A stretch of 64,000 bases of DNA from Desulfurivibrionaceae bacterium. GTDB lineage: Bacteria; Desulfobacterota; Desulfobulbia; Desulfobulbales; UBA5123. Of this stretch, positions 2 through 23,489 are shown in pieces. The stretch's first letter is position 1, and the number at the start of each line of letters is the position of its first letter. A program made the translations under genes and the position numbers. The stretch lies in NCBI GenBank assembly GCA_030145325.1, contig JAQYVW010000004.1, positions 24,060 through 88,059 of the forward strand, in the 5' to 3' direction. Under the pieces are notes generated by a model, which was not told the origin of the DNA, did not search any database, and saw nothing but the letters and a program-made list of their open reading frames with translations.

Positions 2-652
2 CGTGATGAGTTTTTTAAGGATTTGCGCGGCGGCGCCAGCCGAGCCTGGGCAGAATTTGCCCTGGATAGTGGGATCTTTTTTGTTTTGTTGCCTTTTTAC
101 CAGGATTGTCTCACGGGGCCTGAAAACGTGGCCAATCGTGAGCGGTTGTTGGCTCTCTTGGCGGTTATTGACCGTGTTCATGGCGAGGGGAATTTGTTGC
201 CGGAGGAGATGCTCTTTGCCCTCTTGCTCTTGGTCTGGGCGGAGGCGGAAATGGGCTTGGGAGGTGAACCCTTAAAAGGGCCGCAAGCCTTCGCTTTCTC
301 CCGGAAGATCCGAGGGGCTTTGGATGCTAATCTTGCTGATCTGAATATCAAACGGGCCACTCGTGAAATCGTTACCGGCTTGCTGGTCAACCTGCCCATC
401 TGTGAACAGTGTGGGGCCAGTGGAAAATGGCCCAAGTGGTTACAGAAAAAAAGTTATTTCCGCGATGTGTCCCAGTTCCATGCCCTCTGCCAGGAAGCTG
501 AAAGTGGCAAGAAGGCCCAAGTGGTCTTTGCTGAAAAGGAAAAGAGACGTGACTCGCCGCAGCGCCGACCGGTTCGGAAAAAATCGTCAGGGCGTCGTTC
601 CAGCCGCCAACCGGCCTTTGCCAAGGGCGGGATCTTCGGATTAAAAAAATGA
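2..652 (+). CDS. 5'-truncated ORF of unknown function (C-terminal part of a gene that starts upstream of the window)
   Basis: The frame of ORF 23..652 has no stop back to nt 2 (RDEFFKDL...). The product ends in an Arg/Lys/Ser-rich tail (RRDSPQRRPVRKKSSGRRSSRQ). Its TGA (650-652) overlaps the bioB ATG (649). No family recognised. Confidence 0.5.
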   Translation, partial: RDEFFKDLRGGASRAWAEFALDSGIFFVLLPFYQDCLTGPENVANRERLLALLAVIDRVHGEGNLLPEEMLFALLLLVWAEAEMGLGGEPLKGPQAFAFSRKIRGALDANLADLNIKRATREIVTGLLVNLPICEQCGASGKWPKWLQKKSYFRDVSQFHALCQEAESGKKAQVVFAEKEKRRDSPQRRPVRKKSSGRRSSRQPAFAKGGIFGLKK

Positions 653-8531: not shown

Positions 8532-9869
8532 ATGCCTTGGCAGAAAGTTAAAACTATTCTGAAGAAGTCTCTGTCTGCAAGCGTGTATGCGTTGTGGCTT
8601 GAACCCATTCGTGGAGTTCAGGCAGATGATACTCTGCTCGAGCTCATCTGCCCGGATCAGTTCTTCGCTTCATGGGTTAGCGAGCATTACCTGCCCTTGA
8701 TTCAAGAAAGTCTGGCTCTTGCTGGTCACAGCGGGATTACCGCTCGCTGCGCGTTGCGCCCCAATAATAATCAGGCAATTATTGCCAATGATAGTGGCGC
8801 GCAGTTGCGTCTGCCTTGTGTTCCCGAGCAGCAGCGCTCCACCATCCGGACCTTGCATCCTCGTTATACCTTCGACGAATTCATGGTTGGTGACAGCAAC
8901 GCCATGGCTCATTCCGCCTGTAGCAGCCTGGCTGGTGGTGATACCTCCTTGGGGCGTTGTCTCTATATAGATGCGGGCACCGGCCTGGGCAAAAGCCATC
9001 TCACCCACGCCGTGGCGCACCATGTCACCACCCATACGCCCTCTCTTCGTCTCCAGTATCTCACGGCTCAGCAACTGACCAGTGAAATGGTACGGGCCAT
9101 TAAGGGCAATACCATGGAGCAGTTTAAGGACAAATTTCAAAAACATTGCGATATGTTGTTGATTGAGGATGTGCAGGCTCTCTCCGGTCGGGTCAAGACC
9201 CAGAACGAGCTTGCTGACGCCTTTGATATCCTGATGGAGAGTGGTAAAACCATCGTCCTAACCGGTGGGGTGGCGCCACGGGATATCCCCAATATTGATG
9301 AGGGGATTCGATCCCGGTTTTCTTCCGGGTTGGTGACCTCCATAAACTCACCGGATCTGCATACCCGGGTGATTATCCTCAAACGCAAGGCGCAAAATAA
9401 GGATCTTGCCCTGGACGACGAATTGATCATCTACCTGGCAGAAAGTATCCGTGGTGATGTCCGGCAGTTGGAGAGTGCGGTGATTGGCCTCAAGGCTAAA
9501 TCATGCTTGATGAAGACCCCTCCCGATATGACCATGGCCAAGGAGGTGGTTCGTAATCTCATTGGTCATCAGGTAGAGTTGTCAGCCGAGTCGGTGCGGG
9601 ATTTTGTGGCCCGGCAGTTCAAGGTGGCGGTTAGTGACCTGCGCTCCAAGTCTCGTAAAAAGTCCATCACCTTTCCTCGCCAGGTGGCGATGTACCTCGC
9701 TCGCAAGCATACTGAGCAGGCCTTGAGTGATATCGGTGGTGCTTTTAACCGTGATCACTCCACTGTGGTTCATTCGGTGCGGGTGATCAGCGAGGGGGTT
9801 ACCCGCAACGGCAGTATTCGCGGGCAGCTGGAGCATCTTTCCGATAAGTTGAAAAAAGAGTTGTTGTAG
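8532..9869 (+). CDS. dnaA: chromosomal replication initiator protein DnaA
   Basis: 445 aa. Walker A GTGLGKSHL, Walker B LLIEDVQ, sensor/arginine-finger region, and a C-terminal DNA-binding helix region (VAMYLARKHT...DHSTVVHS). Confidence 0.95.
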   Translation: MPWQKVKTILKKSLSASVYALWLEPIRGVQADDTLLELICPDQFFASWVSEHYLPLIQESLALAGHSGITARCALRPNNNQAIIANDSGAQLRLPCVPEQQRSTIRTLHPRYTFDEFMVGDSNAMAHSACSSLAGGDTSLGRCLYIDAGTGLGKSHLTHAVAHHVTTHTPSLRLQYLTAQQLTSEMVRAIKGNTMEQFKDKFQKHCDMLLIEDVQALSGRVKTQNELADAFDILMESGKTIVLTGGVAPRDIPNIDEGIRSRFSSGLVTSINSPDLHTRVIILKRKAQNKDLALDDELIIYLAESIRGDVRQLESAVIGLKAKSCLMKTPPDMTMAKEVVRNLIGHQVELSAESVRDFVARQFKVAVSDLRSKSRKKSITFPRQVAMYLARKHTEQALSDIGGAFNRDHSTVVHSVRVISEGVTRNGSIRGQLEHLSDKLKKELL

Positions 9870-13597: not shown

Positions 13598-13754
13598 TGA
13601 CCACCCTCACCCCGGCCCTCTCCCTGGGGGCGAAGGCCGGGGTGAGGGTGGTCTTTTGGGGGTTGGTGGAGTTTGGGAAGTCTGCCCGAAGCGGGAAAGT
13701 GTTGCGCTCTGGAGTCCCCTCTCCATCAGGGAGAGGGCCAGGGTGAGGGTGGTG
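13598..13754. repeat. GC-rich REP-like element (left border of the island)
   Basis: CCACCCTCACCCCGGCC (13601-13617) pairs with GGCCGGGGTGAGGGTGG (13635-13651). A second GGGAGAGGGCCAGGGTGAGGGTGG arm lies at about 13729-13752. The same motif family recurs at 20657 and 21253. Confidence 0.75.
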
Positions 13755-13799
13755 TCGGTGTTGGGTTGAGCTTTACGCTGTGCATCAATATAAGGAGAT

Positions 13800-16736
13800 A
13801 TGTCGATGGTAGGTGAATTTGCAATTTTTTGGAGTACTCTGCCGCCGGATTTTCGGAATCTGGTTGTTTCTACAGCGGCAAGTCTGGCGGCTGGGTTTCT
13901 TGGTAATAAACAGCCTGAGCTGCTTAAGCCGATGGGGGTGGCCTTCGAAAAGGGTCTACAGGCTTTCCTAGCTTCGTTGGGACAACCCTTCGTCGGTTCC
14001 TTTGGTGAACGCATAGTCCGAGATGTCGAAATAGTCACTTTACTGCGGGAGACCATGAAGGCACCATCCATGGCTGATCATGGGCAAAGGATTAAACAGC
14101 GGCTGGGTGCTTTGGGGGTTGATGGGGCCGTTCTTGCAAGCCTTGATGTTGATCAAGCTGTACGGGAGTTTGTTGAACGGGTCATGGATGAGGTGCGGTA
14201 TGTTCCGGAGTTGTTGCCCCTCCTGCAACTTGAGCGAATGGAGGAATTGATTTGCCTTACGAAAGGCATGCCGCCTGACTTGAGCCGTCTTCAAGAAGAG
14301 TATTTTGGTTGGCTGCGCAACACTTATGGTCGGATCAGGTTCAAGGGATTGAGTAAAAATCCCTTCACTCTGCCCCTGTCCGGGATGTATACCGCACTTA
14401 ATTTGACCGAGGAACGCCATGGCAAAGAAAAAGATGGTGCGGTTGACGATGAGGAAAGTGCTCAGCTTGCTGGGCGCGAAGGGGCAACGAGTTCTATCTC
14501 TTTGGGGGATCTTATTGCGGCGCGCTTTGTTGCCATAACCGGTGGCCCCGGAGCTGGGAAAAGTACGATCTTACGTTACATCGCCCTTGCCTTTGCCGAG
14601 AATGATGCTCAAGAACGGTTGGGTGTTGCCGAGGATCTCTTTCCTGTTCTCTTGCCCGTGTCCGCCTACGCAGAATTTCTTCGAAATGGTGATTCCGTCG
14701 GGGCGGCTCGTTGTTCGTTGCGTGACTTCTTTTCTCTCTATTTTCGTCGCCGGGGACTGCCGGATTTGGAGCCGCTTATCTGCCATGTCGCTCAGCAGGG
14801 TCGGGCGCTTTTTTTGCTTGATGGTCTTGACGAGGTTATTGACGACGGAGAGCGGGCGCGGATCGTGGATGCGGTGCGCGACTGCATGATTGCTGACCAC
14901 GAGGTAGAAAATAGGTATATCATCACCTGTCGAACCGCAAGTTATAACGGTACCAGCCGTTTTGAGCCCTTTGCCGGTCAAGAGTTCCGCCATTGTTTGG
15001 TGCAGCCTTTCGAATTGGCGCAGATCAGCCGTTTTCTCTGGACTTGGTATCATTGGTATGAAACGGAGGTTAATCGAAAGAGGGATGGTGTTGATGAGAA
15101 TGCTGAGCGGTACCGGCAGCGGATGGTTGAGGTCATTGAGCTTGATCGCAATATCTTCGCCATTGCCAGAACCCCGCTCCTTCTTACAATCTTGGTCTTG
15201 ATCGAACAGGAGGGCAACACCCTGCCGAGGAACAGGGCTGAACTGTATGGCAAATGCCTTACCTTACTGGCAGGAGCTTGGGAAGGTATTCGTAGCGAAC
15301 ATGCCCGTGCGGCGGATCGGGAGTATCGGTTGGGGGATTTGCGTATTGACGATGACATGATCGTTGAGATGCTTGGCCCGGTGGCCTTGTCCATGCACCG
15401 CCGTTCTGCCCCTAATATCGGCCATGGTGAGTTGAAGCGGCAGTTTGCCGGGATTTTGGATGAAACCAACCGGAATATGCGCCTATCGCGGCAACAGGCA
15501 GATGATTTTTTGGCCATCTTGGGTCGTCGGAGCGGTATTTTGCAGGAGGTTGCGCCGGGAGTCTATGATTTCATGCATCAAACCTTTCGTGAATATTTGA
15601 TCGCTCGTTATCTGGCCGATGTGGCCGAGGATTATCTAGAGCTGTTGGAGGAGGTACTCCTTAAGGCGGAGTGGCGGGAGGTGGTATTTCTGTTTGTCTC
15701 TTCCCTGAATAAGCGTGACGCTTCAAAATTTGTTGAGCAAATCATGCAACGTCTCGATGCTGGGGTCGCAAATTTAGTTTTGGCTGGTGATATTGTCGTT
15801 GATGTGGGGCCAGAGAAAATAGCACCAAAGGTAGTGGCAGAGTTGATTGTCCGGCTGCGAGATGCACAGGGGGGTGATTGCTCGATGAAGGAGAAGGTGA
15901 GTGTGGCCGAGAGTTTGGGTTGGCTTGGCGTTCATCAAGGGGTTGCCAATATCCGGGAATGTTTTGTTGCCATTGACGGTGGGGAGTACGATCTTAAGGA
16001 GGTGGGTACCGTAACCCTGGATTCTTTTGAGGTTTGCCGTTATCCGGTGATTAACTTGTGGTTTGAAGATTTTGTCCGTGGCAACGACTACGGTCATGAG
16101 GGGTATTGGTCTGCAGAAGGTCGGAAGTGGTTGGCGTATACCAAGGTTGTGGCGCCGCGATTCTGGAATGAGCGGAGATATCGTTGTCCTACCTCGCCGG
16201 TGGTCGGGGTTTGCTGGTATGAAGCCGATGCCTTTTGTCGGTGGTTGACTGCTACTGATAAGGAGGGGTATCTCTATCGATTGTTGACCGAGGAGGAATG
16301 GCAGGCTGTTGCTGCCGGGAGAACGCAGCGGCTCTATCCTTGGGGGGGAGGAGAAGGGGAGGTGTCGAGTAATACAAGTGAAGCGAAGGTTGGTCGGATC
16401 TCGCCGGTGGGTGTTTTTTCTTTGGGGAATACCCCGGAATTTGCAATCAGTGATCTTGGCGGTAATGTTTGGGAGTGGACAAGCTCTGATTATCATCGAA
16501 GGGAGCAGCAAGGTGATTTTTTATTCGATGAGAAGTTGCAGAGGTTTTATGAAGAAGGGGATTGGGGGAGATATGTAAAAGAAATGGAAAACAAAGAAAG
16601 GGGGGTGCCTGTTTTGCGCGGCGGCTCGTGGTTCAATGATCGTGGTTTTGCCCGCTGCGCCGCCCGCCTCAGGGGCCTCCCGAACGACCGGTTCCACAGA
16701 CTGGGTTTTCGTTGCGCCAGGACTTTATTAAGATAG
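13800..16736 (+). CDS. DGR target 1: NACHT (STAND/NLR-like) NTPase with C-terminal FGE-sulfatase / C-type-lectin-fold domain carrying VR1
   Basis: 978 aa. AAGGAG Shine-Dalgarno before the ATG. Walker A ITGGPGAGKST, Walker B ALFLLDGLDEV (NACHT hhhhDGLDE). C-terminal FGE motifs (PVVGVCWYEADAFCRWL, YRLLTEEEWQ, GNVWEWTSSDY, RGGSWFNDRGFARCAARLR...GFRCAR). Confidence 0.9.
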   Translation: MSMVGEFAIFWSTLPPDFRNLVVSTAASLAAGFLGNKQPELLKPMGVAFEKGLQAFLASLGQPFVGSFGERIVRDVEIVTLLRETMKAPSMADHGQRIKQRLGALGVDGAVLASLDVDQAVREFVERVMDEVRYVPELLPLLQLERMEELICLTKGMPPDLSRLQEEYFGWLRNTYGRIRFKGLSKNPFTLPLSGMYTALNLTEERHGKEKDGAVDDEESAQLAGREGATSSISLGDLIAARFVAITGGPGAGKSTILRYIALAFAENDAQERLGVAEDLFPVLLPVSAYAEFLRNGDSVGAARCSLRDFFSLYFRRRGLPDLEPLICHVAQQGRALFLLDGLDEVIDDGERARIVDAVRDCMIADHEVENRYIITCRTASYNGTSRFEPFAGQEFRHCLVQPFELAQISRFLWTWYHWYETEVNRKRDGVDENAERYRQRMVEVIELDRNIFAIARTPLLLTILVLIEQEGNTLPRNRAELYGKCLTLLAGAWEGIRSEHARAADREYRLGDLRIDDDMIVEMLGPVALSMHRRSAPNIGHGELKRQFAGILDETNRNMRLSRQQADDFLAILGRRSGILQEVAPGVYDFMHQTFREYLIARYLADVAEDYLELLEEVLLKAEWREVVFLFVSSLNKRDASKFVEQIMQRLDAGVANLVLAGDIVVDVGPEKIAPKVVAELIVRLRDAQGGDCSMKEKVSVAESLGWLGVHQGVANIRECFVAIDGGEYDLKEVGTVTLDSFEVCRYPVINLWFEDFVRGNDYGHEGYWSAEGRKWLAYTKVVAPRFWNERRYRCPTSPVVGVCWYEADAFCRWLTATDKEGYLYRLLTEEEWQAVAAGRTQRLYPWGGGEGEVSSNTSEAKVGRISPVGVFSLGNTPEFAISDLGGNVWEWTSSDYHRREQQGDFLFDEKLQRFYEEGDWGRYVKEMENKERGVPVLRGGSWFNDRGFARCAARLRGLPNDRFHRLGFRCARTLLR
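16618..16730 (+). other. VR1 (variable repeat) at the 3' end of target 1
   Basis: 113 nt collinear with TR 18210-18322. 14 mismatches, all at TR adenines (AAC>TTC, AAC>CTC, AAC>GGC, CAC>CTC, AAC>GAC, AAC>TTC, AAA>AGA, ATA>TTA, AAA>TTA). Confidence 0.9.
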
Positions 16737-16807: not shown

Positions 16808-17155
16808 ATGGCAAGCGAAGTCGACGCGGTTACCAAGCTCTATGACTACCTGCTCTGGCTGGTGCCCAAGCTGGAGAAATTTCCCCGCCAACAGAAATTT
16901 CTCATTGGTGACCGTTTGGAGACCCTACTCCTCGACATCCTTGATCTGCTGGTGGAGGCGGCATATACCCGCAATAAGGCAGCCTTGCTGCAACGGGCCA
17001 ACATCAAGCTTGAGCAGCTTCGCTATCTGATCCGGCTGGCCAAGGATCTCAAACTACTGTCGTTGAACAGTTACGAATTTTCCGCCCGGGCCATTGATGG
17101 GATTGGCACCTCGGTTGGCGGCTGGCTCAGGTATGCACGACATGAAAAGTTATAA
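16808..17155 (+). CDS. avd: DGR accessory variability determinant (Avd; four-helix-bundle protein)
   Basis: 115 aa from the internal ATG of ORF 16712..17155. KLYDYLLWLVPKLEKFPRQQKFLIGDRLETLLLDILDLLVEAAY...LRYLIRLAKDLKLLS matches the Avd/four-helix-bundle pattern. Overlaps the RT start by 14 nt. Confidence 0.85.
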   Translation: MASEVDAVTKLYDYLLWLVPKLEKFPRQQKFLIGDRLETLLLDILDLLVEAAYTRNKAALLQRANIKLEQLRYLIRLAKDLKLLSLNSYEFSARAIDGIGTSVGGWLRYARHEKL

Positions 17156-18203
17156 TCATCTCTTTGGGCAAATTACCTCTTTTGACAACCTGCTGCTGGC
17201 TGCCCGTAAGGCCCAGAAGGGTAAGCGTTTCAAGGCGGGATGCGCTCGTTTCAATTTCAACCTGGAGGGACAATTACTCAAGCTCCAGCGGGAGTTGCTG
17301 GCGGGCAGTTATCGTCATGGCCGCTATCGCGATTTTTTTATCAACGATCCCAAGCGGCGGTTGATCAGTGCCGCGTCCTATCGGAATCGGGTGGTGCACC
17401 ATGCTCTTTGTAATGTTATCGAACCCCTCTTTGACCGCTCCTTTATTCATGACTCCTATGCTTGTCGAACCGGCAAGGGCACCCACGCGGCCGTGGATCG
17501 TTACACCCATTATGCCCGTAAGTACCGTTACGTGCTCAAGTGTGACATCCGTAAATACTTTCCCTCTGTGGATCAACAGATCCTGTTGGCAATGATCGTT
17601 AAAAAGATCCGTTGCCAACCAACCATGGCGCTGATTACCGAGATCGTCTCCTCCCGCCGCGACCATGGCTGCGGGTTCCATTTCTCGGGCGATAATCTTT
17701 TCACCCCCCTTGAGCGGCAGCGGGGGCTTCCCATTGGCAACTTGACCAGCCAGTTCTTCGCCAACCTTTATCTGGACGGCTTTGATCATTGGGTTAAGGA
17801 AGAGCTGCGTTTGCCTTATCTCCGTTATGTGGATGACTGGGTTGTCTTTGCCAATGATAAGGTGTTGCTGGGCGAGACCCTGGTTCAGATGAAGGAATAT
17901 CTGGCCGGGTTGCGCTTGCGTCTGCATGCCAATAAATGCCGCGTCTACCGGGTGGATGAGGGCGTCCGTTTCCTGGGTTACCGTATTTTTCCAGATCATC
18001 GTCTACTGGACAAGGGCAATGTGTTACGGGCCAGGCGACGATTCAAGAAGTTGTGTTGTCGGTACCGAGATCGCGAGATATCGTTTGCCGCTGTGCATCA
18101 AAGCATTCAGAGCTGGGTGGGCCATGCTTCCCATGCCGATACCTATCGGTTGCGGGGCAGGCTGCTCGGTGAGGTGCGCTTGCAAAGGGGGCCGGGTCTA
18201 TAA
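17142..18203 (+). CDS. DGR-type reverse transcriptase
   Basis: ORF 17094..18203, start set at ATG 17142 (MKSYNHLF). RT motifs include LPIGNLTSQFFANLYL (the [I/L]GxxxSQ signature of DGR RTs) and the catalytic YVDD (LRYVDDWVVF). No maturase or endonuclease extension. Confidence 0.9.
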   Translation: MKSYNHLFGQITSFDNLLLAARKAQKGKRFKAGCARFNFNLEGQLLKLQRELLAGSYRHGRYRDFFINDPKRRLISAASYRNRVVHHALCNVIEPLFDRSFIHDSYACRTGKGTHAAVDRYTHYARKYRYVLKCDIRKYFPSVDQQILLAMIVKKIRCQPTMALITEIVSSRRDHGCGFHFSGDNLFTPLERQRGLPIGNLTSQFFANLYLDGFDHWVKEELRLPYLRYVDDWVVFANDKVLLGETLVQMKEYLAGLRLRLHANKCRVYRVDEGVRFLGYRIFPDHRLLDKGNVLRARRRFKKLCCRYRDREISFAAVHQSIQSWVGHASHADTYRLRGRLLGEVRLQRGPGL

Positions 18204-18209
18204 ACGGGT

Positions 18210-18322
18210 GCGGCGGCTCGTGGAACAATGATCGTGGTTTTGCCCGCTGCGCCGCCCGCAACAGGAACCACCCGAACAACCGGAACCACAAACTGGGTTT
18301 TCGTTGCGCCAGGACTATAAAA
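18210..18322 (+). ncRNA. DGR template repeat (TR)
   Basis: Starts 6 nt after the RT stop. 113 nt with 28 adenines, many in AAC codons. Would encode GGSWNNDRGFARCAARNRNHPNNRNHKLGFRCARTIK. Collinear with VR1 and VR2. Confidence 0.9.
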
Positions 18323-18528: not shown

Positions 18529-20583
18529 ATGGTACACCGTCTTAATTTTGTTTCCGATATCCATTGTAGCGAGGATCAGCTCGGTTTTGCCAGATACGTC
18601 AACACCCTGGCCGCCATGATCGGGGAGGAGGGGTTTACCACCCCGTTTTGTATCGGCATCTATGGCGATTGGGGCAGCGGCAAGACCAGTTTCATGCATC
18701 AGTTGCAGAAGCGGGTGAAGGAGGATGGCGGCGAAACCCATATGGTGCCGGTCTGGTTCAACCCCTGGCGGTATGAGAAGGAAGAGCATCTCATCATCCC
18801 CTTTTTGAAGACCATCGAGAAGAGTCTGGCGGCAGCGCCTAAAGGATTGGCTCCCGAGGTGGCGGCAAAACTCAAGGATGCAGCCGCGGCAGTGGGCCGG
18901 GTGGCCGCCGCCTTTGCCTATGGCTTGAATGTGGAATGGAAGCTGGGTGGTCTGAAGGCGGTCTTTGATGCCTCCAAGGCCGTGGGTCGTGAGGAAGAGC
19001 TTGCCGAGCGGCGGCGCAAGGAGGCTACGGCTCTTGCTGAGACCTTGTCGTCGCTCTACTACGACGCCATCAATGAACTTCAGCTTGATGAGCATGAAGA
19101 GGCGTTTCGCATCGTGGTCTTCATCGACGATCTTGATCGTTGCCTGCCGGAAAAGGCGGTGGAGTTGCTGGAGGCGATCAAGCTTTTCCTAGACCTCAAA
19201 GGCTACCTCTTTATCATCGGGGTGGCCAAAGAGGTGGTGGAGAAAGGGATTCGGCATCGCTATCGGTTTCTTGACGACGGTAAGGGCGGGCAAGAGGTGG
19301 TCAAGCCCGAGGCCTATCTGGACAAGATGATCCAGATGCCCTTGCAGTTGCCGCGTGTGGAAGCGGGCCGCAAGCGGGATTACCTCAATACGCTCTTTAA
19401 AGGTGCGGAGTTCGAGCCGGAGGTGCGGGAGGTAATTTTTAAACTGGTCGAAACCGCCATCGGTGACAACCCCAGGGCATTAAAGCGGTATGTCAACCTC
19501 TTGGCCTTCACGGCCCGGCTTGCCCAGGCGGTGAAGGATGAGCTTCTGCAAAAGGAAGAGGAGTCGCCGGAGCATAAAGAGTTGCTGGAGGCGCATTTTG
19601 TGCCGGTGCAGTACGCCAAATGGACCACCATTGTTTTTAAGTTTTCCCGCGATTATCAGGATATCAGGGGCAACTGGCAGCGATTGCTGCGTTTGCAGGA
19701 AGCTGCCTTGGACAAGGGGGAGGAGCAGGCAGGGGGTGTCGGCAGTGAGGGTGAGAAGAAGAATCTCACCATTTCATCGACGTTACGGAAGATTCTCGCC
19801 GTGAAGCCGCATTTTCCTGAGGATAAATGGTTGATCGATTGTTTCATTAATCTCAATGAATCAACCTTGGCCAGTGGCGAGGCCAAGGAGACTTCCGGTG
19901 CCAGCCGACATTATCGGCCTGGGGATATGGTTCGCATCCCGGCGGGTGAGTTTCTCTATGGTGAGGCCAAGGAGCCGACAACCATTGACCACGATTATCT
20001 GATTGATGTCTTTCCGGTGACCAACAGTATCTATAAGGAGTTCCTGGATGCCAATTTGGGACATGATGTTCCCTTTGTGGATCAGTCGTGGGCGCAGCCG
20101 TATAATTGGGACAAGGAAAAACGGCTTTTTCCGGTTGGTAAGGATGATCATCCGGTGGTGCTGGTGTCGTATGAGGATGCGCTGGCGTTCTGCCGGTGGC
20201 GGAGCGAAAAAGAGGGTGGGGAATTTCGGTTGCCCAGCGAGGAGGAGTGGGAAAAGGCGGCCCGGGGCACTGATGGTCGCCAATACCCTTGGGGCGAGGA
20301 GTTTGCTCAGGAGCGTTGTAATACCGAGGAAGCCGGAATTGGCGAAACCACCCCGGTGGATCGGTACCCGGAAGGGCGGGGGGTGTTTGACTGCATGGAT
20401 ATGGTCGGCAACGTTTGGGAGTGGACTGGTAGTTGGTTTGATGATGATAAGGATTTGAAGGTGCTGCGCGGCGGCTCGTGGAACTTTGATCGTGGTTTTG
20501 CCCGCTGCGCCGCCCGCCTCAGGTACCCTCCGAACAACCGGGACCACATTCTGGGTTTTCGTTGCGCCAGGACCATAAAATAG
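18529..20583 (+). CDS. DGR target 2: KAP-family P-loop NTPase with C-terminal FGE-sulfatase / C-type-lectin-fold domain carrying VR2
   Basis: 684 aa. GAGGAG Shine-Dalgarno. KAP hallmarks IGIYGDWGSGKTSF (Walker A) and VVFIDDLDRCLPEKAVELLEAIKLFL (Walker B). FGE motifs (HPVVLVSYEDALAFCRW, FRLPSEEEWEKAARG, GNVWEWTGSWF, RGGSWNFDRGFARCAARLR...GFRCAR). Confidence 0.9.
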   Translation: MVHRLNFVSDIHCSEDQLGFARYVNTLAAMIGEEGFTTPFCIGIYGDWGSGKTSFMHQLQKRVKEDGGETHMVPVWFNPWRYEKEEHLIIPFLKTIEKSLAAAPKGLAPEVAAKLKDAAAAVGRVAAAFAYGLNVEWKLGGLKAVFDASKAVGREEELAERRRKEATALAETLSSLYYDAINELQLDEHEEAFRIVVFIDDLDRCLPEKAVELLEAIKLFLDLKGYLFIIGVAKEVVEKGIRHRYRFLDDGKGGQEVVKPEAYLDKMIQMPLQLPRVEAGRKRDYLNTLFKGAEFEPEVREVIFKLVETAIGDNPRALKRYVNLLAFTARLAQAVKDELLQKEEESPEHKELLEAHFVPVQYAKWTTIVFKFSRDYQDIRGNWQRLLRLQEAALDKGEEQAGGVGSEGEKKNLTISSTLRKILAVKPHFPEDKWLIDCFINLNESTLASGEAKETSGASRHYRPGDMVRIPAGEFLYGEAKEPTTIDHDYLIDVFPVTNSIYKEFLDANLGHDVPFVDQSWAQPYNWDKEKRLFPVGKDDHPVVLVSYEDALAFCRWRSEKEGGEFRLPSEEEWEKAARGTDGRQYPWGEEFAQERCNTEEAGIGETTPVDRYPEGRGVFDCMDMVGNVWEWTGSWFDDDKDLKVLRGGSWNFDRGFARCAARLRYPPNNRDHILGFRCARTIK
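20468..20580 (+). other. VR2 (variable repeat) at the 3' end of target 2
   Basis: 113 nt collinear with TR. 9 mismatches at TR adenines (AAT>TTT, AAC>CTC, AAC>TAC, CAC>CCT, AAC>GAC, AAA>ATT). 2 non-adenine differences (C>T at 20529, T>C at 20574). Confidence 0.85.
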
Positions 20584-20610: not shown

Positions 20611-20656
20611 CTGCTCTGGTCGGAGCTGGGCGGTTTTCGGTTGGTGGGAACGGTTT

Positions 20657-20904
20657 TGACCACCCTCACCCCGGCCCTCTCCCTGAGGGCGAGGGAGTGG
20701 CTTCGAGCGGTTTATGGGGGGAGGGCTTTTAGTTCGGTGGAGTTTGGGGGCGCGGGAAAGGCGAGTGCTGGAGCCGATGCCCGCAAGGCCTGGCCCGGTA
20801 ATTTGTTGTCATCCCATCCAGATGCCACCTGGGATGCAGAAACGGTACAACCTATCTCGGCAACGTCCCCTCGCCCCAAGCGGGGAGAGGGCCAGGGTGA
20901 GGGG
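20657..20904. repeat. ~240-bp GC-rich repeat, copy A (upstream of DUF559)
   Basis: Starts TGACCACCCTCACCCCGGCCCTCTCCCTGAGGGCGAGGGAGTGGCTTCGAGC and ends GGGGAGAGGGCCAGGGTGAGGGG. Collinear with 21253-21489 apart from scattered mismatches and indels. Confidence 0.8.
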
Positions 20905-20907
20905 AGA

Positions 20908-21255
20908 ATGAATAAGAACACCACCATTGCCAGAAAACTCCGTCGCCAACAAACCGATGCCGAACAAATACTCTGGCAACGGCTCCGTAGCCGCCAACTT
21001 GCCGGCTGCAAGTTTCGCCGCCAGCATCCGGTGGGGCCATATGTGGTTGATTTCGTCTGTCTCAAACAAGGACTGGTGGTGGAACTTGACGGCAGTCAGC
21101 ATGCCTTGCCTGAGGAAGTGGTTAAGGATGCGAAACGAACCGCCTATCTCGAAGCGGAGGGCTTTCGGGTGCTGCGCTTCTGGAATAACGAGGTGTTTGG
21201 CGAGATCGAGGCGTTGTTGACGCGGATTTTGGCGGCGCTGGTGGAGGGACGATGA
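20908..21255 (+). CDS. DUF559 endonuclease-like protein (Vsr-like fold)
   Basis: ORF 20641..21255 trimmed to the ATG at 20908 (MNKNTTIARKLRRQQTDAEQILWQRLR...FRRQHPVGPYVVDFVC...VELDGSQH...RVLRFWNNEV), the typical DUF559 pattern. The upstream part of the ORF is a translated repeat. Confidence 0.8.
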   Translation: MNKNTTIARKLRRQQTDAEQILWQRLRSRQLAGCKFRRQHPVGPYVVDFVCLKQGLVVELDGSQHALPEEVVKDAKRTAYLEAEGFRVLRFWNNEVFGEIEALLTRILAALVEGR

Positions 21256-21489
21256 CCACCCTCACCCCGGCCCTCTCCCTGAGGGCGAGGGAGTGGCTTC
21301 GAGCAGTTATGGGGGGAGGGCTTTTAGTTTGGGGGAGTTGGAAAGGCAAGTGCTGGAGCAGGTGCCTAGGCGGCCAGCTCGGTAATGTGTCATCATTCCA
21401 GCCAACTGCCACCTGGGATGCAGAAACGGTATAACCTATCTCGGCAACGTCCCCTCGCCCCAGTGGGGAGAGGGCCAGGGTGAGGGGGG
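21253..21489. repeat. ~240-bp GC-rich repeat, copy B (downstream of DUF559)
   Basis: Same 5' and 3' ends as copy A. Begins within the DUF559 stop codon. Confidence 0.8.
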
Positions 21490-21677: not shown

Positions 21678-23489
21678 CTATGGTTCTGGCGGGGAGGTGG
21701 ATTTGTATAAATCTAGTTGCTTGCGGTAGTAATCTTCATTGTCCGGGGCCATGGCCAGAGCCTGTTCTTCGCGGGCAACAGCTTGCTGCCGGTTGCCGGT
21801 GAGCCAGTAAGCGCGGGCCAGGGTGTCGAGGATGTGGCTGGCCGGGGTTAAGGCTGCGGCCTTTTTGGCTATCCGCAAGGCTTGTTTAGGGTTGCGGAGG
21901 GCTGTCTCCTCGGCGGTGAGGAGAAGCCAGGCGAAATTATTCAGGGTTTCGGCGTCAGCGGGGTTTAAGCGCAAGGCTTCTTCATAGGCGTTGATTGCTT
22001 GCGGGTACTGTTTGCGTTCATGTTGCAGGTCGCCCAAGAGGTGGTGCCAGAGCGGGTCGTTGGGGGTTTGACTGATCTTTTGCTCAATCACCGCCTGGGC
22101 GAATTTTGCTCGTGGGGCGCCGTCCAGCAGGTTGGAGGGCGTCTGCCAGATGAGTAAACCGGCGGTTGCTGCCGCCAGCAGGTAGCAGGCAAGGCTCAAG
22201 GCCACCTTGCGGTCATGGCGTTTAACCAGGCTGCGGTCTCTTTCACAGCGGAGCAGGAAGTCAACCCGCTCACCGATGCCGAAATGGTGCCAGCTGGGCA
22301 GGTCACGGATATTGCCGGAGAGGTAGGCGATTTTTTCCAGGACAAAGATCATGGGGCGGCTGTCGGCCATGGTCGAGAAGGCGTGGAGGTCGGCCTGGCG
22401 CTCAAAGTTGCGCATGAAGTAGCCGAAGAGGTAGCGAAAATAGACCAGCATCAAGATCAGCATCGGCGCCATGGAGGCAAAGGTCAGAGCGTCGCTGGGT
22501 GATTGGCCGCTGATGCTGATGAGTTTATAAAAAATATTTGAACTGAGCAGCAGGTAAAGGCTGGGGTAGGTAATCAGTTGGGCAAAGATGAGAAAACCGG
22601 CAAAGAAGAGGATGTACAGTTGCAGGTGATGCCTTTTGACATGGCCGATCTCATGGGCCAGCACCGCATCGATTTCATCTTCAGTCATGGCTTTAAGCAG
22701 ACCGGGGGTGATGAGCAGATAACGAAAGCGACGGGTGAGGCCCATGACCCCGGCGGTGAGCATCCTCCCTTCGAATAGCGGCCAGCTCAAGATATCGGCA
22801 TAGGCAAGGTTCTGGCTTTGGCAGAAGGCTTCGATTCTTTCGCGTTCTTTTCCTGGCGGCAGCGGCGTGCAGCCCCAGAGGCGGATAATGATGGCTGGGA
22901 AGATCAGGGCCATGAGGAGGAAGAGCAGCAGGAACAGGGTCGGTTCACCCCATGGCGAGGCGAGGAAATTTTTTACTGCCGGTAAGGGCGAGATGGTGAG
23001 CAGGTCGGAAAGCAGAGAGAGGATCAGCCACGGCAGGATGATGGGCAGGTTGGCCTTGAGGTTTGAGGAGATGAAAGACCAGGCGCCATAGCTGCGGCCA
23101 AAGACCAGGCCATAGCTTTTTCTGGCCTCAGTCCAGATGATGGCCAGGTAACCGAAAAAGAGCATAATCCCGCCAAGCTGGGGCAGGGTTGGCAGGCTGT
23201 TAAGCCATGGTAGGTTGGTGAAATAATACTGGCAATCGAGCAGATAGACGTCAATGCCCAAAGCCGCGATGGCCAGGATTGACAGCCGTTGTTCCATGGC
23301 GAAATAGCGTGGCGATTGCTGGATGCGGCCACCCCTATGGATGCGACGAGCAACCAGGGAAAAAACCACGCCTTTGAGCAGGAAGAGGAGCAGGGCGGTG
23401 TGGGCGGCAAGGGCAGGTGTTGCCGGGATGGTTTTGGTGGTCAGGATGAAGATGACGACCAATAGATAGATGAGGTTATTGTAAAACAA
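21678..23489 (-). CDS. M48-family zinc metallopeptidase, polytopic membrane protein with C-terminal TPR repeats
   Basis: 603 aa, TTG start. HEIGHVKRHH (HExxH). Many TM segments N-terminally. TPR-like repeats (AINAYEEALRLNPADAETLNNFAWLL...). Confidence 0.8.
   Translation of the reverse strand: MFYNNLIYLLVVIFILTTKTIPATPALAAHTALLLFLLKGVVFSLVARRIHRGGRIQQSPRYFAMEQRLSILAIAALGIDVYLLDCQYYFTNLPWLNSLPTLPQLGGIMLFFGYLAIIWTEARKSYGLVFGRSYGAWSFISSNLKANLPIILPWLILSLLSDLLTISPLPAVKNFLASPWGEPTLFLLLFLLMALIFPAIIIRLWGCTPLPPGKERERIEAFCQSQNLAYADILSWPLFEGRMLTAGVMGLTRRFRYLLITPGLLKAMTEDEIDAVLAHEIGHVKRHHLQLYILFFAGFLIFAQLITYPSLYLLLSSNIFYKLISISGQSPSDALTFASMAPMLILMLVYFRYLFGYFMRNFERQADLHAFSTMADSRPMIFVLEKIAYLSGNIRDLPSWHHFGIGERVDFLLRCERDRSLVKRHDRKVALSLACYLLAAATAGLLIWQTPSNLLDGAPRAKFAQAVIEQKISQTPNDPLWHHLLGDLQHERKQYPQAINAYEEALRLNPADAETLNNFAWLLLTAEETALRNPKQALRIAKKAAALTPASHILDTLARAYWLTGNRQQAVAREEQALAMAPDNEDYYRKQLDLYKSTSPPEP

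What the first reader, a model, noticed from the sequence alone, without database searches (positions are those of the whole stretch)
13800..14500. Unassigned ~230-aa N-terminal domain on the DGR-targeted NACHT protein (possible effector or adaptor module)
In NLR-like STAND proteins the region N-terminal to the NTPase normally carries the effector (nuclease, protease, TIR, pore-former) or a death-like adaptor. Residues 1 to about 235 of target 1 (MSMVGEFAIFWSTLPPDFRNLVV...GDLIAARFVAITGGPGAGKST) look helical and contain no catalytic motif I can recognise. The KAP target has essentially no N-terminal extension: its Walker A lies at about residue 47. If the system signals on ligand binding, the output must lie in this domain or in a gene elsewhere.
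Basis: inference. Interest (0 to 1): 0.7.

Follow-up and report, generated by a model that had tools for sequence, protein, structure and literature searches.

The report
NNH2-like helical domain on NACHT
The "unassigned" N-terminus of this hypermutation-targeted bacterial NLR-like protein is a divergent copy of an already catalogued but functionally unstudied helical domain (NNH2) that is only ever found in front of NACHT NTPases, followed by a stretch that belongs to the NTPase itself, so it is a fairly ordinary member of a known architecture.

Summary
The ORF (13800/13806..16736, +) and the DGR context are real. Residues 1-235 are not one domain. (i) Residues ~3-154 form a compact nine-helix bundle (AF2 pLDDT 88) with no PDB or viral fold match, no conserved catalytic residues and an acidic pI. 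(ii) Residues 147-155 are a low-confidence hinge. (iii) Residues 156-205 are a helix plus three strands conserved in NACHT-CLec proteins whatever their N-terminus, so they belong to the NACHT module (FISNA-like position). (iv) Residues 206-234 are a disordered acidic linker. The helical module is a divergent member of Pfam NNH2 (NACHT N-terminal Helical domain 2). The query itself scores below threshold, two orthologues score above it, and hhalign to a genuine NNH2 protein is collinear (P=2e-4). Kibby et al.'s Table S1 already lists "NNH2+NACHT+FGE-sulfatase". Every complete family member found sits in front of a NACHT, and the short ones are broken genes. A close paralogue replaces the module, exactly at the hinge, with a PRTase-CE domain, and many paralogues have nothing there. 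So it occupies the exchangeable output slot, but its function is untested. Best guess: a non-enzymatic output domain activated by induced proximity. Verdict: new member of a known kind, modest interest.

The parts
13806..14261 (+). Exchangeable N-terminal helical module (residues 3-154 in numbering from 13800): nine-helix bundle, divergent NNH2-like
   Evidence: AF2 pLDDT 87.7, pTM 0.82, helices 3-13, 16-34, 39-60, 62-74, 76-87, 94-104, 109-114, 117-133, 136-153. Homology with the PRTase-CE paralogue P0008 begins at residue 155. NNH2 hits in orthologues. hhalign to P0087 P=2.4e-4. No fold match in PDB or BFVD.
14238..14264 (+). Flexible hinge (residues 147-155), coinciding with the domain-swap junction
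   Evidence: pLDDT below 50 over residues 147-155 in the 1-470 model. The BLASTP alignment with P0008 starts at residue 155.
14265..14414 (+). Pre-P-loop element of the NACHT module (residues 156-205): helix 161-176 plus strands 178-180, 190-192, 202-204; motif PDL..L...YF.WL...Y..I.FKGL....PL..MY..L
   Evidence: Y168 and G183 invariant and L193 nearly so in 40 NACHT-CLec homologues with different N-termini. The block is present in 109 of 129 proteins held. pLDDT up to 97. Weak FISNA hits in 3 of 13 members. Foldseek alignments to NLRC4/NLRP3/NOD2 span 300-330 columns, more than the ~230 residues downstream of residue 240.
14415..14501 (+). Disordered acidic linker (residues 206-234)
   Evidence: pLDDT below 50 over residues 209-229. 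Length and sequence vary among orthologues.
14502..15047 (+). NACHT nucleotide-binding domain; Walker A GGPGAGKS at residues 248-255 (14541-14564)
   Evidence: Pfam NACHT 242-416, E=9.8e-9. Foldseek matches to NLRC4, NLRP3 and NOD2 at E~1e-7.
15999..16721 (+). C-terminal FGE-sulfatase/CLec sensor domain carrying VR1 (16618-16730)
   Evidence: Pfam FGE-sulfatase 734-974, E=2.5e-34. VR1/TR repeat with adenine-specific differences.
16808..17155 (+). Avd-like DGR accessory ORF (context)
   Evidence: Translation MASEVDAVTKLYDYLLWLVPKLEKFPRQQKF.... Assigned by resemblance to Avd from my own knowledge; not tested against a profile.
17094..18203 (+). DGR reverse transcriptase (context)
   Evidence: Pfam RVT_1 E=7e-26.
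18210..18322 (+). DGR template repeat (context)
   Evidence: Three-copy repeat family D1 and its alignment.
18529..20583 (+). Second DGR target: KAP NTPase + CLec, Walker A at residue 46, no N-terminal module; VR2 at 20468-20580 (context)
   Evidence: Pfam KAP_NTPase 21-331 and FGE-sulfatase 466-681. Walker A position. VR2.

Best explanation
The first ~235 residues are composite. Residues ~3-154 are an autonomous, acidic, non-catalytic nine-helix bundle. It is a divergent member of the NNH2 family (NACHT N-terminal Helical domain 2), which occurs only directly upstream of NACHT NTPases. Residues 156-205 are the NACHT module's own conserved pre-P-loop helix/strand element, in a FISNA-like position. 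Residues 206-234 are a disordered linker. The helical module occupies the exchangeable N-terminal output slot of a tripartite bacterial NLR. Proposed mechanism (inferred, not shown): the DGR-diversified CLec domain binds a ligand; the NACHT exchanges nucleotide and oligomerises; the N-modules, tethered by the flexible hinge, are brought together; the clustered helical bundles then form the active output surface without catalysis, by engaging a cellular target or structure. Shown here: domain boundaries, fold class, family link, restriction to NACHT proteins, exchangeability. Inferred: oligomerisation-driven activation, and that this domain is the output at all.
For: Boundaries: homology to the PRTase-CE paralogue P0008 (46% identity) starts at residue 155. 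AF2 gives a hinge with pLDDT below 50 at residues 147-155 and a disordered stretch at 209-229, flanking a confident helix-plus-strands element. Y168, G183 and L193 are conserved across 40 NACHT-CLec proteins with unrelated N-termini. Fold: pLDDT 87.7, pTM 0.82, all-alpha. Family: 9 of 13 orthologue N-termini hit Pfam NNH2 (best E=3e-9). P0015 scores 33.7 bits and P0087 36.4 bits against a threshold of 27, across profile positions ~13-179. 2 of 18 trimmed modules still hit NNH2 (E=2e-5). The A2 profile aligns collinearly to P0087's NNH2 region (hmmsearch E=2e-3; hhalign P=2.4e-4). Kibby et al.'s Table S1 lists NNH2+NACHT+FGE-sulfatase with NNH2 at 5..156 and 5..177. Non-catalytic: the only invariant residues are A48, G52, D108 and F124; there is no conserved Cys or His; pI is 4.6-5.5. 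Output-slot logic: 29 different N-part clusters in the same NACHT clade, including PRTase-CE, DUF4062 and AAA_35. Kibby et al. and Dore et al. describe the tripartite effector-NACHT-sensor organisation.
Against: The query itself scores only 15 bits against NNH2 (threshold 27), and most of that comes from residues 114-185, which include the pre-P-loop helix. The best-scoring genuine NNH2 protein, P0084, is not significantly matched by the module profile. Nothing shows that the module is an output. 29 of 109 related NACHT proteins have fewer than 50 residues upstream of the pre-P-loop block, and the co-targeted KAP protein has no such module, so a fused N-terminal output is not obligatory for this class. 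There is no structural similarity to any known non-enzymatic executioner or adaptor fold. No experiment on any NNH2 protein was found in the literature searched.
Confidence: 0.5

Rival explanations
1. The module is a regulatory or structural accessory of the NACHT NTPase (an autoinhibitory lid or an oligomer-interface helper). It is not the output, and the system's output lies elsewhere or is not a fused effector.
For: NNH2 is found only fused directly upstream of NACHT, as expected of a co-evolving accessory. Many NACHT-CLec paralogues and the KAP target lack any N-terminal domain. Conserved residues are almost all hydrophobic or small, i.e. structural. The family is named as one of several NACHT-specific helical domains.
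Against: A low-confidence hinge separates it from the NTPase, and pTM falls from 0.82 for the isolated module to 0.68 for residues 1-470, which hints at no fixed packing. It is replaced exactly at the hinge by an unrelated PRTase-CE domain in a 46%-identical paralogue, which is how effector slots behave. It is less conserved (about 22-28% identity) than the NACHT body.
Confidence: 0.3
2. The module is a homotypic adaptor (EAD or death-like logic) that recruits a separately encoded effector carrying the same domain.
For: It is non-catalytic, helical and ~150 aa, in the position where EADs and death-like domains occur in conflict-system STANDs.
Against: There is no second copy in the 64-kb window or in three related loci. 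Exhaustive phmmer over 1.84 billion representatives found only NACHT-CLec proteins, truncated remnants of them (P0122 partial, P0123 ending inside Walker A, P0126 cut by an IS) and two repeat-driven or partial matches. All nine NNH2 architectures in Kibby's table are NNH2+NACHT. There is no death-fold match.
Confidence: 0.07
3. The module is a membrane-permeabilising executioner analogous to the fungal HeLo, plant CC (ZAR1) or MLKL four-helix-bundle domains, releasing its conserved N-terminal helix on oligomerisation.
For: It is an N-terminal helical bundle on an NLR-like protein. It has a conserved extreme N-terminal motif FW..LP.D followed by a small-residue-rich hydrophobic helix. There is a weak resemblance of residues 9-43 to a tandemly repeated amphipathic peptide in the secreted-looking protein P0127.
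Against: No TM-like segment: maximum Kyte-Doolittle 19-residue mean is 1.23, and helix 1 has a low hydrophobic moment. There is no Foldseek similarity to HeLo, MLKL, CC or Bcl-2-type structures (best E=0.67, TM 0.31 or less). The P0127 score is inflated by five near-identical repeats of ~9 bits each. Several orthologues, as called, lack the FW..LP motif.
Confidence: 0.1
4. The module is an enzyme with an unrecognised active site.
For: D108 is invariant in a conserved G-I/V-D loop.
Against: There is only one invariant polar residue, no conserved His, Cys, Ser, Lys or Glu constellation, an all-alpha acidic bundle and no enzyme fold match.
Confidence: 0.03

Closest known systems
Pfam PF22734 NNH2 (NACHT N-terminal Helical domain 2), defined in Kibby et al., 'Bacterial NLR-related proteins protect against phage' (bioRxiv 10.1101/2022.07.19.500537)
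   Same: An all-alpha domain of ~150-170 aa at the extreme N-terminus, directly upstream of a NACHT module. The same overall architecture, NNH2+NACHT+FGE-sulfatase, is listed in their Table S1 (clade 1). Orthologues of the window protein pass the Pfam threshold.
   Different: The window protein itself is sub-threshold (15 bits against 27). Its family of ~20 proteins is a divergent branch that does not significantly match the cyanobacterial NNH2-NACHT-HEAT protein P0084. No function is known for NNH2, so membership explains little about mechanism.
FISNA / pre-NACHT region of animal NLRs (NLRP3, NLRC4, NOD2)
   Same: Residues 156-205 (a helix then short strands, with a Y...L...Y..L.F motif) sit immediately upstream of the P-loop strand and are conserved with the NTPase. 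There are weak FISNA Pfam hits in 3 orthologues, and Foldseek alignments to NLRP3 and NLRC4 NACHT structures extend upstream of the P-loop.
   Different: Sequence similarity to FISNA is marginal (E~0.006 at best). The equivalence is positional and structural; homology is not proven.
DGR-diversified STAND/NACHT-CLec 'antigen sensors' of multicellular bacteria (Dore et al. 2024, PNAS, PMC10907252; clade 5D loci)
   Same: Two targets per DGR, NACHT-CLec plus KAP-CLec, with an RT and accessory gene. [quoted passage not shown]
   Different: Here the extension can be assigned distantly to NNH2 and split into a module plus a NACHT element. I did not place this RT in their phylogeny.
Non-enzymatic helical-bundle executioner domains of eukaryotic NLR-type systems (fungal HeLo, plant CC, MLKL 4HB)
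   Same: An N-terminal helical bundle on an oligomerising NTPase, with no catalytic residues.
   Different: No fold similarity by Foldseek, nine helices rather than four or five, and no amphipathic or TM-like N-terminal helix detected. This is an analogy only.

Membership tests
Pfam NNH2 (PF22734) | Scores at or above the Pfam gathering threshold (27 bits) against the NNH2 HMM | tested here: inconclusive
   The query scores 15.0-15.3 bits, E~0.02, residues 114-185 to profile 111-180. Orthologues: P0015 33.7 bits; one A1 member E=3e-9; P0004, P0005 and P0011 26.1-26.7 bits; 9 of 13 at E<0.1. With the pre-P-loop block removed, 2 of 18 still hit (best 2e-5).
Pfam NNH2 (PF22734) | Collinear profile-level similarity of the exchangeable module to a genuine NNH2 domain | tested here: inconclusive
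   The A2 profile against P0087 (NNH2 36.4 bits): hmmsearch E=2e-3 over 19-151 to 41-173; hhalign P=2.4e-4, 123 columns, probability 44%. Against P0084 (NNH2 182 bits): not significant.
Pfam NNH2 (PF22734) | Located at the extreme N-terminus, directly upstream of a NACHT module | tested here: met
   Module at residues 3-154 and NACHT at 242-416. The same holds in all full-length family members.
Pfam NNH2 (PF22734) | All-alpha fold of ~150-180 residues | tested here: met
   AF2 gives nine helices and no strands over residues 1-154, pLDDT 87.7.
NACHT clade STAND NTPase | Pfam NACHT hit, Walker A, a D[GAS]hDE Walker B signature, and fold similarity to NLR NACHT modules | tested here: met
   NACHT 35.7 bits against a threshold of 26.7. 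GGPGAGKS at 248-255. LLDGLDE at 338-345, with D341, G342, L343, D344 and E345 invariant. Foldseek matches NLRC4, NLRP3 and NOD2 at E~1e-7.
Effector-associated domain (EAD) / death-like adaptor | The same domain is shared between the NTPase protein and separately encoded effector proteins | tested here: not met
   No second copy in the window or in loci L001-L003. No non-NACHT carrier among the phmmer hits. Kibby's table shows NNH2 only as NNH2+NACHT.
Effector-associated domain (EAD) / death-like adaptor | Death-like six-helix fold | tested here: not met
   No death-fold structure among the Foldseek PDB matches; best E=0.67, TM 0.31 or less.
HeLo / CC / 4HB membrane executioners | Fold similarity, and an N-terminal amphipathic or TM-forming helix | tested here: not met
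   No Foldseek match. Maximum KD19 is 1.23 and helix 1 muH is 0.49.
DGR target protein | C-terminal CLec-fold VR matching a TR next to an RT, with differences at TR adenines | tested here: met

The most novel reading that the evidence does not exclude
The NNH2-like module is a new kind of non-enzymatic, oligomerisation-activated executioner, for example a membrane- or target-disrupting helical bundle with a fold not represented in the PDB. In that case a DGR-hypermutated bacterial NLR would kill or arrest the cell through a mechanism analogous to, but evolved independently of, HeLo, CC and MLKL domains.
Probability: 0.1. Interest if true: 0.75.

Novelty: new member of a known kind. Interest (0 to 1): 0.3.

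Why it matters
DGR-diversified NACHT-CLec proteins have been proposed as programmable antigen sensors in bacteria, and what they do after sensing is unknown. This analysis shows that the apparent mystery domain is a divergent NNH2 domain plus part of the NACHT module, and it fixes the boundaries: module 3-154, hinge 147-155. That removes a false lead (a 230-aa novel effector) and gives precise constructs for the experiment that matters, which is to test whether NNH-type helical domains are outputs or regulators. NNH domains are widespread on bacterial NACHT proteins, and I found no experimental study of them. A functional answer would therefore matter, but this locus adds no new clue to that answer beyond the clean PRTase-CE swap.

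Tried and rejected
1. Word-indexed homologue search with residues 1-240 and with the 18-sequence module alignment. Both returned nothing, not even the query's own protein. I treat this as a tool limitation for short queries, not as evidence.
2. Genome-collection scans. A2 had no stretch conserved enough. The single N-terminus gave no relative. A1 seeded only on the P-loop and returned one Acidobacteria locus matching residues 158-255 only. The source organism was therefore not identified.
3. NCBIfam and PADLOC on the N-terminus: no hit.
4. PDB sequence search with the module profile: only noise, E of 0.03 or worse. phmmer of residues 150-730 against PDB found only P-loop matches.
5. Foldseek of the module against PDB and BFVD: nothing below E=0.48. 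Bestrophin, globin and Bcl-xL appear at TM 0.2-0.3 and were rejected as noise.
6. Weak Pfam hits to DUF6952 (E=0.011) and LacI (E=0.19) on residues 87-136: rejected because they are sub-threshold, short and not shared by orthologues.
7. P0127 as evidence for a membrane-active first helix: rejected as weak, because its 49-bit score is five near-identical ~9-bit repeats.
8. Standalone-module candidates. P0123 ends inside Walker A, P0126 is truncated next to an IS transposase and P0122 is a partial protein. None supports independent distribution.
9. Transmembrane or nucleic-acid-binding readings: rejected on hydropathy and acidic pI.
Full report
**Observation.** Pfam places a NACHT domain at residues 242-416 and an FGE-sulfatase (CLec-fold) domain at 734-974. 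No family reaches significance over residues 1-217, and NCBIfam and PADLOC are also silent there.

The DGR context is real. An RVT_1 reverse transcriptase lies at 17094..18203 and an Avd-like ORF just upstream of it. A 113-nt template repeat lies at 18210-18322. It matches variable repeats at 16618-16730 (3' end of the NACHT gene) and 20468-20580 (3' end of a KAP-NTPase/CLec gene), and the differences fall almost exclusively at template adenines.

One correction concerns the start codon. The Shine-Dalgarno AAGGAG (13792-13797) is 2 nt from ATG 13800 but 8 nt from ATG 13806. Met3 aligns with the initiator Met of every orthologue, and the database gene call is 976 aa. The real start is therefore probably 13806.

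**Anatomy of residues 1-235.** The region is not one domain.

- *Orthologues.* A search with residues 1-730 recovered 16 full-length orthologues (33-39% identity, 96-100% coverage) with the same NACHT-CLec body. Their N-termini align from the first residues.
- *Swap junction.* One close relative, P0008 (46% identical over 752 columns), has a Pfam PRTase-CE domain at its N-terminus. Its homology with the window protein begins exactly at residue 155.
- *Module model.* AF2 on an 18-sequence alignment of residues 1-154 gives a confident compact nine-helix bundle (pLDDT 87.7, pTM 0.82).
- *Model of residues 1-470.* AF2 on a 40-sequence alignment reproduces the bundle. pLDDT drops below 50 at residues 147-155, a hinge at the swap junction. 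A very confident helix (161-176) and three short strands (178-180, 190-192, 202-204) follow, then a disordered stretch at 209-229, and the NBD begins near residue 235.
- *The 156-205 element belongs to the NACHT.* It carries the motif PDL..L...Y...L...Y..L.FKG....PL..IY..L. Y168 and G183 are invariant and L193 nearly so in 40 NACHT-CLec proteins whose N-termini are otherwise unrelated. A profile of the block finds it in 109 of the 129 proteins held. Three orthologues give weak FISNA hits there. Foldseek alignments of the 1-470 model to NLRC4, NLRP3 and NOD2 (E~1e-7) span 300-330 columns, more than the ~230 residues that lie downstream of residue 240. [quoted passage not shown]

So residues 155-240 travel with the NTPase, and only residues ~3-154 form an exchangeable module.

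**What the module is.** The query alone gives only a sub-threshold hit of residues 114-185 to the C-terminal end of Pfam NNH2, "NACHT N-terminal Helical domain 2" (15 bits, E~0.02, threshold 27). Part of that hit is the pre-P-loop helix, which the Pfam model includes. At family level the link is better:

- 9 of 13 orthologue N-termini hit NNH2, with a best E-value of 3e-9.
- P0015 scores 33.7 bits over profile positions 27-179, and P0087 scores 36.4 bits.
- After trimming at the hinge, 2 of 18 modules still hit NNH2, best E=2e-5.
- The module profile aligns collinearly with P0087's NNH2 region (hmmsearch E=2e-3 in a 128-sequence set; hhalign P=2.4e-4, 123 columns).
- The strongest genuine NNH2 protein I hold (P0084, Microcoleus NNH2-NACHT-HEAT, 182 bits) is not significantly matched.

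The window family is therefore a divergent branch of NNH2. Kibby et al. coined the NNH names. Their Table S1 lists the exact architecture NNH2+NACHT+FGE-sulfatase (Chloroflexi NLS76119.1, NNH2 at 5..156; Nitrospirae RMD56071.1, 5..177). Those boundaries match mine. In all nine architecture strings that contain NNH2, it is the first domain and is followed directly by NACHT.

**Distribution.** An exhaustive phmmer search of 1.84 billion representative proteins with residues 1-240 gave only 10 hits at E of 1e-3 or better. Their make-up:

- the window's own protein and four other NACHT-CLec proteins of ~960-990 aa (P0121, P0007, P0124, P0128);
- three short proteins that are broken genes: P0122 is partial, P0123 ends inside Walker A, and P0126 is cut off at the hinge beside an IS transposase;
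- two repeat-driven or partial matches, P0125 and P0127.

No second copy of the module exists in any frame of the 64-kb window or in three related loci. I therefore found no independent distribution and no EAD-style partner.

**Properties.** The fold has no significant match in PDB (best E=0.67, TM 0.31 or less), in BFVD or by sequence profile against PDB. Invariant residues are A48, G52, D108 and F124. There is no conserved Cys or His, the pI is typically 4.6-5.5, and there is no TM-like segment. An enzyme, a nucleic-acid binder and a classical membrane anchor are all unlikely.

**The slot.** Among 64 N-terminal parts of at least 80 aa upstream of the pre-P-loop block, I find 29 sequence clusters. 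A few carry known domains (PRTase-CE, DUF4062, AAA_35) and most have no Pfam match. 29 of 109 proteins have fewer than 50 residues there.

This matches Kibby et al.'s statement that effector domains vary sharply between closely related NACHTs. It also matches Dore et al.'s remark that many DGR-targeted STAND-CLec proteins have N-terminal extensions without characterised domains. It also shows that a fused N-terminal domain is not obligatory for this class.

**Mechanism.** I commit to the following, with about even odds. The module is a non-catalytic output domain activated by induced proximity. Ligand binding by the hypermutable CLec domain would release the NACHT, which oligomerises. The hinge-tethered bundles would then cluster and form the active surface. 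The boundaries, fold class, family link, NACHT restriction and exchangeability are shown. Oligomerisation and the output role are inferred from the established behaviour of NLR-type STAND NTPases.

The main rival (~0.3) is a regulatory or structural accessory of the NACHT. Its exclusive NACHT association and its dispensability in paralogues favour that reading. An EAD or death-like adaptor (~0.07), a HeLo/CC/4HB-like membrane executioner (~0.1) and a cryptic enzyme (~0.03) are each disfavoured by specific negative tests.

**Comparison and novelty.** The closest known entity is Pfam NNH2, and the architecture is already catalogued. The slot logic survives. This is a new, divergent member of a known kind, and the function of NNH domains remains an open but not locus-specific question. 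Interest 0.3.

Noticed in passing
window 13602-13751 and 20661-21488: A GC-rich element (CACCCTCACCCCGGCCCTCTCCC and its reverse complement, forming inverted pairs) occurs 7 times in the 64-kb window (3 mismatches or fewer). All copies bracket the DGR cassette: 13602(+), 13628(-) and 13729(-) upstream of the NACHT gene, and 20661(+), 20883(-), 21257(+) and 21466(-) downstream of the KAP gene. The set includes a perfect 48-nt direct repeat at 20657-20704 / 21253-21300. They may be REP- or MITE-like elements marking a mobile or recombined cassette.
   Followed up: partly
window 20641-21255 (+): A DUF559 / MTES_1575 endonuclease-fold ORF (E=1e-41) lies 58 nt downstream of the KAP target and is flanked by the 48-nt direct repeats. 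It could be a selfish insertion or a trans-acting nuclease of the system. It is absent from orthologue loci L001 and L002.
   Followed up: partly
P0127 (JGI metagenome protein, 319 aa, 1.2-kb contig): A signal-peptide-like N-terminus is followed by five tandem copies of 'SFWNTLKKDFGKVVSVAAPIVSKFIRE' separated by acidic spacers, so it looks like a multi-copy amphipathic peptide precursor. Each copy weakly resembles residues 9-43 of the window protein (~9 bits each; the 49-bit sum is inflated by the repetition).
   Followed up: partly
window 13792-13808: The start codon is probably ATG 13806 (Met3), not 13800. The SD spacing is 8 nt against 2 nt, all orthologues align to Met3, and the database gene call is 976 aa.
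   Followed up: yes
window 16808-17155 (+): An Avd-like accessory ORF (MASEVDAVTKLYDYLLWLVPKLEKFPRQQKF...) lies between the NACHT target and the RT and overlaps the RT ORF start. It was not checked against a profile.
   Followed up: no
L003 5001-5708; L005 283-741: Family members decay. P0123 is a remnant ending inside the Walker A motif, and P0126 is truncated at the hinge next to a DDE transposase. In L002 two NACHT-FGE genes sit in tandem, and in L001 an FGE-sulfatase fragment precedes the orthologue. No RT lies within 7 kb in L001 or in the sequenced part of L002.
   Followed up: partly
window 8532-9869 (+): A full dnaA gene (DnaA_N, Bac_DnaA, Bac_DnaA_C) lies ~4 kb upstream of the DGR locus. 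Cumulative GC skew rises monotonically across the whole window, so no skew turning point (origin) is visible within it.
   Followed up: no
window 21678-23489 (-): An M48-peptidase/TPR protein is encoded convergently just downstream of the DGR cassette. There is no evidence that it belongs to the system.
   Followed up: no
tool behaviour: the search for homologous proteins returned no hit at all for the 240-aa query and for the 18-sequence module alignment, not even the window's own protein, which the 730-aa query did find. Negative results from that tool for short queries should not be read as absence.
   Followed up: yes
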